From a virus, in the UHGV virus genome UHGV-1351982: 64,000 nt of DNA; one strand, given 5' to 3'. Each line of letters starts with the position of its first letter. Within the stretch, counting starts at the first letter, position 1. Below, one piece after another: positions 12,394 through 13,544 of this stretch. The notes beneath the pieces are model-generated. The model was not told the DNA's origin, did no database searches, and worked only from the letters and a program-made list of their open reading frames with translations. The position numbers were made by a program, and so were the translations under genes.

Positions 12394-13495
12394 TTTAGGT
12401 ATTTTTAAGAACTCTTATAAAAGCTCTTAAAGATACCCGACGGTAGGTAGGGTCAGCCCCCTCAGATTAAGCTCTGCAGCCCTTCCGTCAGACAATATCT
12501 TCCAGTTTAAGTCAGGGTGACTTTGTGGTTATGTTCTCCGTATGTGAAGAACTCGGTTAGGCTTAGGTCATGACTCCCAGCCTACTGCTGCCGCTCAACA
12601 GGAATTATCGCGAATTACCTGTACTATTGGGCACCATTAGTGACATCTCTCATGTCAGCGTTTCCCACTCTCATATTCACGCGGTCTGTTAGAATCGCAC
12701 CTCCGATTTTCGATGCGAAGCTGGATGCCTAGTCTCAGGTTAAACGGGGCACACACTAGGCAGTGATCCCGAGTTCCGAGTTTGGTTGAGGCCGTCAGGT
12801 TTCCTCGTGGTTTAGCTGTTTCGCCCTAAACAATTCCTACAACATTAAGGATGCAGGGGGATAGGTGGTACTCCAGCAGCGAGTGCTTATCCGGTATAAG
12901 CCCGAGTTATCCGATTCTTTCCGACCGTAGGATTCGAACCTACATCTTCCACCAGTTACGGCTTGATATTACCGTTTATACTAGGACGGCAGTGTTATCG
13001 CATAAGTCAGTTCGACACCCCACATTGTGACTGGTAAGTCCCCAATGAAGCCATCAGTCGTTAGACCTCCATCATTCATTAAAAACTTACGCTACTCACT
13101 ATTCGATGGACAATCGCCGCATTGTGGTATACATACGTCTTGACTTGCATCCTAGACGGGTCAGCGTTGAAAGTTATATGGGTTTCTCAAGCCCAACCTT
13201 CAGTCTTCTACCCCTGGGACACGCACCGTACTTCACACTATGCCTAGCTCATGTTGAGAACCATCGTTTTGTATAAATTAGAGAAGAGTTTACGAGGTTT
13301 CGGGACAGCTCCCGAATTTTACAAGACGTCTCGAATCTGACCGCAAAGTCGGCTCATTGGCCGGATATACCGGACTAGGCGTCATAAGTCTCACAGATGA
13401 TCTTTCTTAACTCACCGACTCTATTCAGTGGAGTCGCTATCTCGGCATCCGAGAATCACTAAACTCACTCAGCGTAATCGGCTCGCTGTTCTCTA
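12394..13495 (-). ncRNA. candidate long non-coding transcribed region (ORF-free, GC-rich), function unknown
   Basis: No ORF of 60 aa or more in any frame over about 1.1 kb; promoter at 13508-13536 points into it; tRNA-Arg at its 3' end; a T-arm-like hairpin near 12935-12955. Confidence 0.3.
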
Positions 13496-13507
13496 ATTTA
13501 TGAATCT

Positions 13508-13536
13508 ATTATACAGAATTTTGAAGCGTTTAGCAA
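13508..13536 (-). promoter_or_regulatory. sigma70-like early promoter directed into the ORF-free region
   Basis: Minus strand: ttgcta, 17 nt, tataat, leader ataaattagag. Confidence 0.5.
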
Positions 13537-13544
13537 ATCAATTT

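What the first reader, a model, noticed from the sequence alone, without database searches (positions are those of the whole stretch)
12394..13540. 1.15-kb ORF-free, GC-rich, promoter-driven region ending in tRNA-Arg
In an otherwise tightly packed AT-rich phage genome, this stretch has no ORF of 60 aa or more on either strand, visibly higher GC, and many short stem-forming segments. A canonical early promoter (13508-13536) fires into it and a tRNA-Arg sits at its 3' end, so it is probably transcribed and processed as RNA. It could be a large structured ncRNA, a cluster of degenerate tRNAs, or a decayed acquired gene.
Basis: partly seen in the sequence, partly recalled or inferred. Interest (0 to 1): 0.7.

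Follow-up and report, generated by a model that had tools for sequence, protein, structure and literature searches.

The report
Large structured phage RNA (T5 RNAX)
This gene-free stretch of a T5-like phage encodes a long form (about 1.1 kb) of "RNAX", a stable RNA of unknown function annotated in phage T5; it is heavily folded and conserved across the phage family, and two of its hairpin loops carry self-complementary sequences that suggest the RNA molecules pair with each other.

Summary
Window 12394-13540 (RNA sense = minus strand) has no ORF above 59 aa, has 46.5% GC against 40.3% for the window, starts at a T5 early-type promoter (13536-13508) and ends 4 nt before tRNA-Arg(UCU).

It is the homologue of phage T5 rnaX ("RNAX, stable RNA with unknown functions", NC_005859). 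This is a long form: it has about 470 extra 5' nucleotides that T5 lacks.

It is non-coding. Substitutions show no 3-nt periodicity, and indels are rarely multiples of three.

It is structured. Three tested domains show 91-96% of cells paired and 9-13 compensated pairs each, with 0-1 of 500 shuffles reaching the observed values.

One degenerate tRNA (12990-12919) sits as a branch inside a strongly covarying helix. It is not part of a tRNA cluster.

The family spans Markadamsvirinae, Sugarlandvirus-like Klebsiella phages and Mccorquodalevirinae. It matches no Rfam family, including GOLLD and ROOL.

One apical loop keeps a palindrome while changing its sequence between lineages (UCGCGA, CGCGCG, UCCGCGGA, GUGCGCAC, CUCGAG). 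A second loop, GUCAUGAC, is invariant. I read both as kissing loops for self-association, as reported for GOLLD and OLE. The function remains unknown.

The parts
13508..13536 (-). Sigma-70 early promoter (TTGCTA, 17 nt, TATAAT), equivalent to T5 promoter P16-17. The transcription start is inferred near 13501. The T5 annotation would place the RNAX 5' end at the equivalent of 13494.
   Evidence: The start site is inferred by analogy with T5 early promoters (my own knowledge), not measured.
12394..13501 (-). Predicted RNAX transcript, long form (about 1.1 kb), from the inferred start to the base before tRNA-Arg.
   Evidence: Synteny and homology with the annotated rnaX of T5, phage 5 and DT57C. 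Non-coding. Covariation.
13313..13493 (-). 5' accessory domain D1. It contains the 5' hairpin CAGCG-AGCCGAUUA-CGCUG, whose loop may pair with the invariant GAGUCGGU, and a long helix enclosing the CCGG-UAUAU-CCGG hairpin. The domain is absent from T5.
   Evidence: Alignment A5: 96.3% of cells paired, 10 pairs changed on both sides, slid controls give 3 or fewer.
13095..13320 (-). 5' accessory domain D2. It contains hairpins with visible compensatory changes, for example CGGGAGCUGUCCCG versus GUGGCGUCUGAAACCAC, and GAAGGUU..AACUUUC versus AGGAGUU..AACUCCU versus GGGGAGC..GCUCCCC.
   Evidence: Read directly from the alignments. No formal pair count was made.
13024..13096 (-). D3, a 73-nt hairpin module that is present or absent as a unit between phages.
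   Evidence: It is present in the window, NG_S8, HMD-P2, TrudiGerster and one Klebsiella phage, and cleanly absent in SH9 and others.
12997..13005 (-). Helix P3, 5' strand (UUAU-G-CGAU).
   Evidence: Pairs with 12915-12907. 100% of cells are paired in 20 sequences and 3 pairs changed on both sides. Five further pairs are compensated in Pectobacterium phage DU_PP_V, with the G.G mismatch kept.
12919..12990 (-). Degenerate tRNA-like branch. The T arm is intact and the acceptor stem has G1.A72 and U5.U68 mismatches.
   Evidence: Rfam tRNA 29.3 bits against a gathering score of 29. ARAGORN finds it only at a lowered threshold. Its counterpart scores 50 bits (tRNA-Pro) in Erwinia phage KEY and is replaced by a plain hairpin in SH9, GSW6 and L011.
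12907..12915 (-). Helix P3, 3' strand (AUCG-G-AUAA).
12885..12901 (-). Hairpin P4a (GCUUAU-ACCGG-AUAAGC).
   Evidence: 95% of cells paired and 2 pairs changed on both sides.
12674..12884 (-). Central region D4. It is variable between lineages but holds invariant islands: CGAAACAGCUAAACC (100% identical in Klebsiella phages) and the hairpin UCGCAUC-GAAAAUCGGA-GGUGCGA, which becomes UCACAUC..GGUGUGA in Klebsiella phages.
   Evidence: The hairpin compensation was read directly from the alignment; no formal count was made.
12523..12673 (-). Conserved core domain D5. Closing helix P0 is GUGG (12668-12665) with CCAC (12528-12525). It encloses hairpins Ha (12657-12641), Hb (12622-12598), Hc (12583-12559) and Hd (12552-12533).
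   Evidence: Alignment A2: 93.1% of cells paired, 9 pairs changed on both sides, 0 of 500 shuffles reach this, slid controls give 1 or fewer. Covariance model R1 scores 184 bits here, 140 in T5, 95 in Erwinia phage KEY, 41 in L011 and 26 in Klebsiella phages.
12608..12613 (-). UCGCGA, a self-complementary hexamer in the apical loop of Hb. Candidate kissing-loop site.
   Evidence: 48 of 52 unique homologues have a palindrome of at least 6 nt here, with five different sequences.
12567..12574 (-). GUCAUGAC, a self-complementary octamer in the apical loop of Hc (GG-AGUCAUGA-CC). Second candidate kissing-loop site and the most conserved element of the family.
   Evidence: Present in 52 of 52 unique homologues and in DU_PP_V, while the enclosing stem changes completely: AGGCU/AGCCU, AGACU/AGUCU, GUGAC/GUCAC, CCUAGAC/GUCUAGG.
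12438..12522 (-). 3' domain D6. It contains the invariant hairpin AGUCA-CCC-UGACU followed by UAAACUGGAA, then a helix (ACGGAAGG/CCUACCGU) that encloses two small hairpins flanking CUUAAU.
   Evidence: Alignment A3. Three sequence types keep the helix with different sequences (GACGUUACUG/CCGGUAUCGUC in T5-type, CAGUAG/CUACUG in Klebsiella-type). This was read directly because the MAFFT register differs between types.
12398..12437 (-). 3'-terminal 18-19-bp A/U-rich hairpin, ending 4 nt before the tRNA.
   Evidence: The internal C.A mismatch of the window is U-A in T5-type and C-G in Klebsiella-type sequences.
12319..12393 (-). tRNA-Arg(UCU). Its 5' processing site would define the RNAX 3' end.
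   Evidence: The T5 and phage 5 annotations end RNAX at the base before this tRNA.

Best explanation
The region encodes a long form of RNAX, a large, highly structured, non-coding stable RNA of T5-like phages.

Shown here:
- It is homologous and syntenic to the annotated rnaX of T5.
- It is non-coding.
- Its helices covary.
- It is read from the promoter's strand.
- A degenerate tRNA is built into it as a branch closed by a covarying helix.
- Its 3' two-thirds are shared by all lineages, while the 5' third is an accessory made of hairpin modules that come and go.

Inferred:
- The early promoter at 13536-13508 transcribes RNAX together with tRNA-Arg, a 66-aa ORF and an SPFH-domain gene.
- RNase P cleavage at the tRNA 5' end releases RNAX.
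- The 5' hairpin and the long 3'-terminal hairpin protect the RNA ends, which would explain why the RNA is stable.

Proposed mechanism (inferred, about 50% likely): RNAX molecules associate with each other through two apical loops that carry self-complementary sequences. These are Hb (UCGCGA) and Hc (GUCAUGAC). The result would be a dimer or a higher homo-oligomer. Adjacent bases of a loop cannot pair with each other within one chain, so a loop palindrome that is kept while its sequence changes points to pairing between two copies.

In kind, this makes RNAX an enterobacterial-phage counterpart of the ornate, tRNA-island-associated phage RNAs GOLLD and ROOL. The end function is not known. My best guess is an RNA scaffold or decoy that acts early in infection on tRNA-related or RNA-binding host factors.
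For: Identity with RNAX:
- T5 NC_005859 40848-41566 is annotated misc_RNA rnaX between promoter P16-17 and tRNA-Arg. The same annotation appears in phage 5, DT57C and DT571/2.
- The core segments are 78-88% identical to T5. Model R1 scores 140 bits on T5.

Non-coding:
- Substitutions by codon position give p = 0.13-0.99, against 1e-2 to 2e-9 for the adjacent YqeY gene.
- Only 5-29% of indels are multiples of 3.
- The short ORFs seen in homologues cover different segments, and the two longest lie on the strand antisense to RNAX.

Structure:
- D5: 93.1% of cells paired, 9 compensated pairs.
- tRNA-like branch, P3 and P4a: 90.9% paired, 13 compensated pairs, P3 100% paired.
- D1: 96.3% paired, 10 compensated pairs.
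- In all three, 0-1 of 500 shuffles reach the observed values, and slid controls give 25-47% paired.
- G.U versus A.C in the helices is 88 to 13.

Breadth:
- 535 phage records match.
- Model R2 hits Pectobacterium phage DU_PP_V at 92 bits, E = 9e-20.

Self-association:
- The Hb loop holds a palindrome of at least 6 nt in 48 of 52 unique sequences: UCGCGA in 36, UCCGCGGA in 8, GUGCGCAC in 2, and CUCGAG and CGCGCG in 1 each. The enclosing stems also differ.
- The chance of such a palindrome in a shuffled loop is 0.07-0.29 per lineage, with a product of 6e-5 over five lineages.
- GUCAUGAC is invariant in all 52 sequences and in DU_PP_V, inside stems that change completely.
- Palindromes are otherwise depleted in the region: 7 observed against 16.5 +/- 4 expected.
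- Predicted self-duplex energies are -7 to -14.5 kcal/mol.

Precedent: the cryo-EM paper PMC12286853 used the same argument. Loops of OLE and GOLLD switch between palindromes, which supported intermolecular bridges. It also reports that GOLLD has a conserved 3' region and a variable 5' region, lies near tRNA islands, and sometimes carries tRNAs in its linker.
Against: - There are no experimental data for this phage. 'Stable RNA' rests on a GenBank annotation whose primary paper I could not find.
- Single-sequence folding energy is only 1.8-2.3 sd better than shuffles.
- The palindrome lineages are not independent, because most share a CGCG core.
- Four of the 52 sequences, plus Erwinia phage KEY, keep only aCGCGa. 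DU_PP_V has only an AAUAUG loop at the Hb position.
- The invariant Hc loop cannot tell self-pairing apart from binding of a protein or another RNA.
- The 5' third is dispensable in nature: it is absent from T5 and replaced by an HNH endonuclease gene in phages smaug and H8.
- Large deletions in the T5 tRNA region are viable (PMC12483538), so any function is conditional.
- The structures tested were hand-derived from these same alignments, and the one came from RNAalifold on the same alignment. This inflates the fraction of paired cells relative to the slid controls.
Confidence: 0.6

Rival explanations
1. Cis-acting leader or processing scaffold. The structured RNA is not a trans-acting product. 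It is a long 5' leader whose job is to stabilise the transcript, direct maturation of tRNA-Arg (and formerly of the embedded tRNA), or control expression of the downstream 66-aa ORF and SPFH gene.
For: - It is always transcribed towards tRNA-Arg, and in most phages it ends 3-4 nt before it.
- The long 3' hairpin next to the tRNA could be an RNase III/E or RNase P positioning element.
- The operon continues to a terminator after the SPFH gene.
Against: - A leader does not need 0.7-1.3 kb of covarying multi-domain structure with invariant loops.
- The RNA keeps its structure when homing-endonuclease genes or two ORFs separate it from tRNA-Arg, as in phiR2-01, HMD-P2, ende and the Klebsiella phages.
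- The T5 annotators list it as a separate stable RNA.
Confidence: 0.2
2. Precursor of several small stable RNAs. The transcript is cut at the tRNA-like element and elsewhere into several small RNAs, like the other T5 stable RNAs (RNAI, RNAIII, RNAIV, RNA1-3). Each would act on its own.
For: - T5 annotates seven small stable RNAs or tRNA-like RNAs in the same tRNA region, and four have homologues in this window.
- The embedded tRNA-like element could attract RNase P or 3' processing enzymes.
- The modules D1-D3 come and go independently.
Against: - T5, phage 5 and DT57C annotate one continuous RNAX of 719-785 nt that includes the tRNA-like element.
- The tRNA-like branch is enclosed by helix P3, which joins the sequence on its two sides.
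- Helix P0 joins sequences about 140 nt apart. This argues for one folded unit.
Confidence: 0.12
3. Decaying remnant: a cluster of dead tRNA genes or a dead acquired protein gene, tolerated in a non-essential region and without function.
For: - One degenerate tRNA is present.
- The region is mosaic, with module-sized indels of 65-88 nt.
- Deletions in the T5 tRNA region are viable.
Against: - Only one tRNA-like hit at E <= 10.
- No coding signature.
- Invariant motifs and compensatory changes are kept across three Demerecviridae lineages, down to a level where BLAST sees only the 3' hairpin.
- Junk would not covary.
Confidence: 0.03
4. DNA-level element. The palindromes and inverted repeats act in DNA, as protein-binding, nicking, replication or homing-endonuclease target sites, rather than in RNA.
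For: - The loop palindromes are classic 6-8-bp DNA palindromes (TCGCGA, CCGCGG, CTCGAG).
- Homing endonucleases are active at the borders of the region.
- T5 DNA carries sequence-specific nicks (note).
Against: - Helices tolerate G.U far more often than A.C (88 to 13). This is an RNA signature and is strand-specific.
- The palindromes sit in the apical loops of covarying hairpins.
- The annotated T5 nick lies outside RNAX.
Confidence: 0.05

Closest known systems
Phage T5 RNAX (gene rnaX, T5s08; also annotated in Salmonella phage 5, DT57C and DT571/2)
   Same: - Same position: after the YqeY-like gene and promoter P16-17, ending at tRNA-Arg(UCU).
- Same embedded tRNA-like element, same D5/D6 core and same 3' hairpin.
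- Core segments are 78-88% identical, and model R1 scores 140 bits on T5.
   Different: - The window's RNA is about 1.1 kb against 719 nt in T5.
- It carries a 466-nt 5' accessory domain (13489-13024) that T5 lacks.
- The central segment D4 has a different sequence.
- T5 has a duplication of the AGUCACCUUGACU..AACUGGAA motif.
- Nothing beyond 'stable RNA with unknown functions' is recorded for T5 RNAX.
GOLLD RNA (Rfam RF01998)
   Same: - Large (over 800 nt), ornate and phage-encoded, near tRNA islands.
- Conserved 3' region with a variable 5' region; tRNAs are sometimes embedded.
- A symmetric loop switches between palindromes, which supported an intermolecular kissing bridge (PMC12286853).
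   Different: - No match to the Rfam model at E <= 1-10 in the window or in five divergent homologues.
- Sequence and helices are unrelated.
- The hosts are enterobacteria.
- Oligomerisation is not demonstrated for RNAX.
ROOL RNA (Rfam RF03087)
   Same: Large phage or prophage RNA near tRNA islands, with no known protein partner. It forms homo-oligomers held by kissing loops and A-minor contacts.
   Different: No Rfam match. The size and architecture differ.
HIV-1 dimerisation initiation site (DIS) kissing loop
   Same: A 6-nt self-complementary sequence in an apical loop, flanked by A-rich residues, with natural variants that switch between palindromes (GCGCGC and GUGCAC in HIV-1). This comparison rests on my own knowledge.
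   Different: The DIS is a retroviral genome-dimerisation signal. It shares no sequence or family relationship with RNAX; only the principle is shared.
Small stable RNAs co-transcribed with phage tRNAs (T5 RNAI, RNAIII, RNAIV, RNA1-3; T4 species 1 and 2)
   Same: They are made from the tRNA gene region, released by tRNA-processing enzymes, stable, and of unknown function (T4 from my own knowledge).
   Different: They are 70-170 nt long, against 700-1300 nt for RNAX. They have no multi-domain architecture.

Membership tests
T5 RNAX (rnaX) | Lies between the YqeY-like gene with its early promoter (P16-17) and tRNA-Arg(UCU), on the same strand. | tested here: met
T5 RNAX (rnaX) | Sequence and structure homology to the annotated T5 RNAX. 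| tested here: met
   BLAST gives 78-88% identity over the core segments. Model R1, built on the core, scores 140 bits (E = 1e-37) on T5.
T5 RNAX (rnaX) | Accumulates as a stable RNA in infected cells. | not testable with these tools
   This rests only on the GenBank annotation. No paper was found in the held library.
GOLLD / ROOL (Rfam RF01998, RF03087) | Match to the family covariance model. | tested here: not met
   No hit at E <= 10 in the region, E <= 1 in its surroundings, or E <= 1 in T5, Klebsiella, Yersinia, Erwinia and TrudiGerster homologues.
GOLLD / ROOL (kind: ornate phage RNA of tRNA islands) | More than 500 nt, many covariation-supported helices, phage-encoded, next to tRNA genes. 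| tested here: met
GOLLD / ROOL (kind: ornate phage RNA of tRNA islands) | Forms RNA-only homo-oligomers. | tested here: inconclusive
   Palindrome-switching in the Hb loop and an invariant palindromic Hc loop are consistent with this. Oligomerisation itself cannot be tested here.
tRNA (embedded element 12990-12919) | Cloverleaf that reaches the Rfam tRNA gathering score and is called by ARAGORN. | tested here: inconclusive
   29.3 bits against a gathering score of 29. ARAGORN does not call it at default settings and finds it only at a lowered threshold, as 'Ser(act)'. There are two acceptor-stem mismatches. It is best called tRNA-like.
Cluster of degenerate tRNA genes | Several tRNA-like units in tandem. 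| tested here: not met
   Only one unit at E <= 10. The extra ARAGORN calls at low thresholds fall on both strands and overlap each other, so I treat them as noise.
Protein-coding pseudogene | Codon periodicity of substitutions, indels in multiples of 3, and an ORF intact in some relatives. | tested here: not met
   (p = 0.13-0.99; 5-29% of indels are multiples of 3). Searches show no shared ORF. The ORFs found in relatives are inserted HNH or T5orf172 endonuclease genes.

The most novel reading that the evidence does not exclude
RNAX is a self-assembling, RNA-only homo-oligomer (a dimer, ring or cage) made early in infection by the classic model phage T5 and several hundred relatives. It would be a further, independent family of ornate phage RNAs alongside GOLLD and ROOL. 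Unlike those, it sits in a genetically tractable E. coli/T5 system, where the function of such RNAs could at last be tested. A built-in tRNA-like branch hints at a tRNA-related target.
Probability: 0.35. Interest if true: 0.85.

Novelty: new member of a known kind. Interest (0 to 1): 0.66.

Why it matters
Large, ornate phage RNAs next to tRNA islands (GOLLD, ROOL) are now known to form RNA-only cages, but nobody knows what they do. Their hosts are hard to work with.

RNAX has been annotated in T5 as a 'stable RNA with unknown functions', but I found no description of its structure, distribution or function. It matches no Rfam family.

This analysis shows four things:
- RNAX is a 0.7-1.3 kb multi-domain RNA with covarying helices.
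- It is conserved in three lineages of Demerecviridae.
- A tRNA-like branch is built into it.
- Its loops behave like the intermolecular kissing loops of OLE and GOLLD.

Together these turn an ignored annotation into a candidate for the same kind of biology. The advantage is that T5 and E. coli K-12 allow knock-outs, host-defence panels, pull-downs and cryo-EM as routine work.

There is also a practical consequence. Many deposited T5-like genomes either leave the region blank or annotate short spurious ORFs inside it.

Tried and rejected
- ARAGORN at lowered thresholds gave overlapping tRNA and tmRNA calls on both strands, which I treat as noise.
- RNAalifold on a MAFFT alignment of all lineages found almost nothing, because the divergent lineages are misaligned. 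I had to work within alignable subsets and with covariance models.
- Motif scans of IMG/VR gave two chance matches: L047 is a ribosome-binding site and L052 is the start of a dUTPase-like gene.
- The looser pattern GAGTCATGACC..AACCAC gave about 35 chance hits.
- L097, an AT-rich unrelated phage contig, has a similar layout: promoter, 1.3 kb with few ORFs, a tRNA-like element, GGUGGGAAAU..GUGG-AGUCAUGA-CCAC..AACCAC, then tRNA-Pro. I considered it a distant homologue but could not support it. R1 gives 9.5 bits, R2 gives only a tRNA-like 15.7 bits, and 63 related loci lack the motif.
- The single metagenome scan returned only T5-like contigs.
- An SD-like GGAGGUG in a conserved D4 hairpin loop was considered as a ribosome-binding or anti-SD decoy site. 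I dropped it because T5-type sequences keep only GGAG, and in DU_PP_V it lies in a stem.
- A 16-codon ORF at 12674-12624 was considered. I dropped it because T5-type sequences lack the start codon and its variable codons follow hairpin covariation.
- Other perfect palindromes in the window's RNAX (AGACGTCT, GTATAC, CTGCAG) are not conserved as palindromes.
- A possible third switching palindrome in D2 (GUCUAGAC / GCCUAGGC; UCUAGG with wobbles in the window, around 13149) was noted but not pursued.
- Literature searches for RNAX or T5 stable RNA found nothing on it.
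Full report
**1. The observation**

The window is a T5-like phage. The region is 98% identical to E. coli phage NG_S8, an Epseptimavirus, and matches 535 phage records, all of them T5-like where inspected.

- Within 12394-13540 the longest ORF on either strand is 59 aa.
- GC is 46.5%, against 40.3% for the window and 37-40% for the flanks. That is the 97.6th percentile of 1147-nt windows.
- A sigma-70 promoter (TTGCTA, 17 nt, TATAAT) lies at 13536-13508 on the minus strand. It belongs to the repeated T5 early-promoter family seen at more than 10 other sites in the window.
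- tRNA-Arg(UCU) is at 12393-12319 on the same strand.

The lack of ORFs is not by itself remarkable, since 12% of shuffles of the region also lack one. Single-sequence folding energies are only modestly low, at z = -1.8 and -2.3.

**2. What it is**

In the T5 reference genome, the stretch between the YqeY-like gene with its promoter 'P16-17' and tRNA-Arg is annotated 'misc_RNA rnaX, RNAX, stable RNA with unknown functions' (NC_005859 40848-41566, 719 nt). The same feature is annotated in Salmonella phage 5, DT57C and DT571/2.

The window region is its homologue. The promoter, the segment 13023-12885 and the segment 12669-12394 are 78-91% identical to T5.

The window differs from T5 in three ways:
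- It carries an extra 466 nt (13489-13024) between the promoter and the shared core.
- The central part (12884-12670) has a different sequence.
- This long form is found in full in about 24 GenBank records and in part in about 220.

Klebsiella (Sugarlandvirus-like) phages have a 1.3-kb version that is 68-75% identical.

**3. It is not coding and not a tRNA cluster**

Substitutions between the window and nine homologues are evenly spread over the three codon positions (p = 0.13-0.99). The adjacent YqeY gene shows strong periodicity (p = 0.014 to 2e-9). Only 5-29% of indels are multiples of three.

The short ORFs found in homologues cover different segments, and the two longest lie on the strand antisense to RNAX.

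The Rfam tRNA model finds a single extra element, at 12990-12919 (29.3 bits, gathering score 29). Nothing else reaches E <= 10.

No other Rfam family matches, including GOLLD and ROOL. This holds for the window and for five divergent homologues.

**4. It is a structured RNA read from the minus strand**

I collected 52 unique homologues, falling into 26 clusters at 4% distance, from GenBank, IMG/VR and metagenomes. Alignments show invariant single-stranded motifs separated by hairpins whose stems change in a compensatory way. Three domains were tested formally.

| Domain | Window coordinates | Sequences | Cells paired | Pairs changed on both sides | Shuffles reaching this | Slid controls |
|---|---|---|---|---|---|---|
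| Core D5 | 12673-12523 | 13 | 93.1% | 9 of 30 | 0 of 500 | 38-45% paired, 1 or fewer double changes |
| tRNA-like branch, P3, P4a | 13027-12880 | 21 | 90.9% | 13 of 26 | 0 of 500 | 31-45% paired, 3 or fewer double changes |
| 5' domain D1 | 13493-13313 | 11 | 96.3% | 10 of 32 | 1 of 500 | 25-47% paired, 3 or fewer double changes |

Helix P3 (13005-12997 with 12915-12907) encloses the tRNA-like element and is paired in 100% of cells.

In the helices G.U occurs 88 times and A.C 13 times. This places the RNA on the promoter's strand.

One caveat applies. The structures were derived from these same alignments: by hand for the first two, and by RNAalifold for the third. This favours them over the slid controls. 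The counts of double changes are less affected.

**5. Anatomy, from 5' to 3', in window coordinates on the minus strand (verified)**

- Promoter, 13536-13508.
- Inferred transcription start near 13501.
- Accessory domains D1 (13493-13313), D2 (13320-13095) and D3 (13096-13024). D3 is a 73-nt hairpin module, present or absent as a unit.
- Helix P3, enclosing the tRNA-like branch (12990-12919).
- Hairpin P4a (12901-12885).
- Variable centre D4 (12884-12674), with invariant islands.
- Core D5 (12673-12523). It is closed by GUGG/CCAC and contains hairpins Ha, Hb, Hc and Hd.
- D6 (12522-12438).
- A 3'-terminal hairpin of 18-19 bp (12437-12398).
- Four nucleotides later, tRNA-Arg.

The tRNA-like branch scores 50 bits in Erwinia phage KEY, where it is called tRNA-Pro. 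It scores 26-38 bits elsewhere, and it is replaced by a plain hairpin in SH9, GSW6 and L011. It is therefore a peripheral branch that probably began as a real tRNA.

Mosaicism comes partly from homing endonucleases. An HNH_3 gene replaces D1-D3 in phages smaug and H8. A T5orf172/MUG113 gene sits between RNAX and tRNA-Arg in phiR2-01.

**6. Breadth of the family**

Covariance model R1 (D5) scores as follows:

| Phage | R1 score (bits) |
|---|---|
| Window | 184 |
| T5 | 140 |
| Erwinia phage KEY | 95 |
| L011 | 41 |
| Klebsiella phages | 26 |

Pectobacterium phage DU_PP_V belongs to a different subfamily, Mccorquodalevirinae. It has a 1.0-kb unannotated stretch in the same place, and BLAST recognises only the 3' hairpin. 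Model R2 (P3, tRNA-like element and P4a) nevertheless hits it at 92 bits, E = 9e-20. Five P3 pairs are compensated and the internal G.G mismatch is retained.

By eye, P0 is also compensated there (GUGG/CCAC becomes AUGG/CCGU), and Hc has an entirely different stem around the same loop.

A contig from an unrelated AT-rich phage (L097) has a similar layout and motif. I could not support it as a homologue.

**7. The loops**

The apical loop of Hb contains a self-complementary sequence of at least 6 nt in 48 of 52 unique homologues:

| Loop palindrome | Number of sequences | Lineage |
|---|---|---|
| UCGCGA | 36 | window and most Markadamsvirinae |
| UCCGCGGA | 8 | Klebsiella phages |
| GUGCGCAC | 2 | phiR2-01, ende |
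| CUCGAG | 1 | L011 |
| CGCGCG | 1 | T5 |

The other four sequences, and Erwinia phage KEY, keep aCGCGa. The stems below the loop differ as well.

The chance that a shuffled loop holds such a palindrome is 0.07-0.29 per lineage, giving a product of 6e-5 over five lineages. This overstates independence, because most variants share a CGCG core.

The loop of Hc, GG-AGUCAUGA-CC, contains the palindrome GUCAUGAC. It is invariant in all 52 sequences and in DU_PP_V.

Elsewhere in the region palindromes are depleted, with 7 observed against 16.5 +/- 4 expected. The other palindromes are not conserved as palindromes, apart from the tRNA T-loop TTCGAA.

Neighbouring bases of one loop cannot pair with each other. 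A loop palindrome that is maintained through sequence change therefore points to pairing between two copies of the RNA. The cryo-EM study of OLE, ROOL and GOLLD used exactly this argument for OLE L9.3 and GOLLD L21a. That paper also describes GOLLD as having a conserved 3' region and a variable 5' region, a position near tRNA islands, and tRNAs sometimes in its linker (PMC12286853).

**8. Mechanism**

Shown:
- A conserved, non-coding, multi-domain structured RNA on the promoter's strand, homologous to T5 RNAX.

Inferred from the annotation and from established tRNA processing:
- RNAX is co-transcribed with tRNA-Arg.
- RNase P releases it.
- Its terminal hairpins protect it.

Proposed, at about 50%:
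- Self-association through the Hb and Hc loops into a dimer or higher oligomer. This would make RNAX work like GOLLD or ROOL without being a member of either family.

The ultimate function is unknown. My guess of a scaffold or decoy for tRNA-related or RNA-binding host factors has no direct evidence.

Points against a vital role: the 5' third is dispensable in nature, and large deletions in the T5 tRNA region are viable.

**9. Novelty**

The RNA has been annotated in T5-type records, so its existence is known. This copy is a new, longer member of that family.

I found no description of the following in the held literature, and none of it is in Rfam 15:
- the structure of RNAX;
- its family-wide conservation;
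- the integrated tRNA-like branch;
- the palindrome-switching loops.

**10. Verdict**

The element deserves follow-up mainly because it may bring the open question of what large ornate phage RNAs do into the T5 / E. coli model system.

Noticed in passing
window 232-363, 1866-1966, 2498-2618, 3151-3223 (minus strand): Homologues of four other T5 'stable RNAs with unknown functions' are present: rna2H (80% identity), rnaIV (94%), rna2 (79%) and rna3 (95%). The rna2 homologue overlaps the gene that ARAGORN calls tRNA-Arg(ccg) at 2547-2616.
   Followed up: partly
L009 2909-3049 (Erwinia phage KEY, CDS key_076); L002 2573-2913 (GreteKellenberger bas26_0077/78); L038 980-1658 (TrudiGerster bas27_0080-82); L042 1528-2722 (Roth37): Short 'hypothetical protein' CDSs annotated in deposited genomes lie inside the RNAX homologue. 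For example, key_076 overlaps a 95-bit hit of the D5 core model. They are probably annotation artefacts.
   Followed up: partly
L006 1540-2022 (phage smaug; likewise H8); L007 2592-3152 (phiR2-01); L037 2309-2818 (HMD-P2; likewise ende and GSW6): Mobile genes sit at the borders of RNAX. An HNH_3 endonuclease replaces the 5' accessory domain. A T5orf172/MUG113 (GIY-YIG-like) protein and a 169-aa ORF with no Pfam match are inserted between the 3' hairpin and tRNA-Arg.
   Followed up: partly
L097 12330-13725 (minus strand; IMGVR_UViG_3300002220_000838): An unrelated AT-rich phage contig has the same layout: promoter, about 1.3 kb with few ORFs, a weak tRNA-like element, then tRNA-Pro. It also has the string GGUGGGAAAU..GUGG-AGUCAUGA-CCAC..AACCAC. 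Covariance models do not support homology, and 63 related loci lack the motif, so it stays unexplained.
   Followed up: yes
window 11022-11123: A G+C-rich hairpin pair after the SPFH/Band-7 gene gives weak sub-threshold Rfam hits (anti-hemB, ctRNA and leader families). It corresponds to the bidirectional terminator annotated in T5 and phage 5, and probably ends the RNAX / tRNA-Arg / SPFH operon.
   Followed up: no
window 12394-13540: Perfect palindromes of 6 nt or more are depleted in the region: 7 observed against 16.5 +/- 4 in dinucleotide-preserving shuffles. This may reflect restriction-site avoidance. I did not check whether it holds for the whole genome.
   Followed up: no
L034 / L036 (phage T5 RNAX, about 100-180 nt before its 3' end): T5 itself carries a tandem duplication of the invariant motif AGUCACCUUGAC(U/A)UAAACUGGAA, separated by an insert of about 60 nt with hairpin potential. 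The sampled relatives other than L073 (two motif matches) do not have it.
   Followed up: no
window about 13155-13145 (D2); L003 and L008 equivalents: A possible third loop that switches between palindromes: GUCUAGAC in one Klebsiella phage, GCCUAGGC in five sequences, and UCUAGG (self-complementary only with G.U pairs) in the window. Its structural context was not worked out.
   Followed up: no
L041 (PP355766.1, Klebsiella phage vB_Kpn_AM_K4): This 288,685-bp record is classified as Straboviridae, yet it contains a T5-like (Sugarlandvirus-type) segment with the RNAX homologue. The record may be a chimeric assembly of two phages.
   Followed up: no
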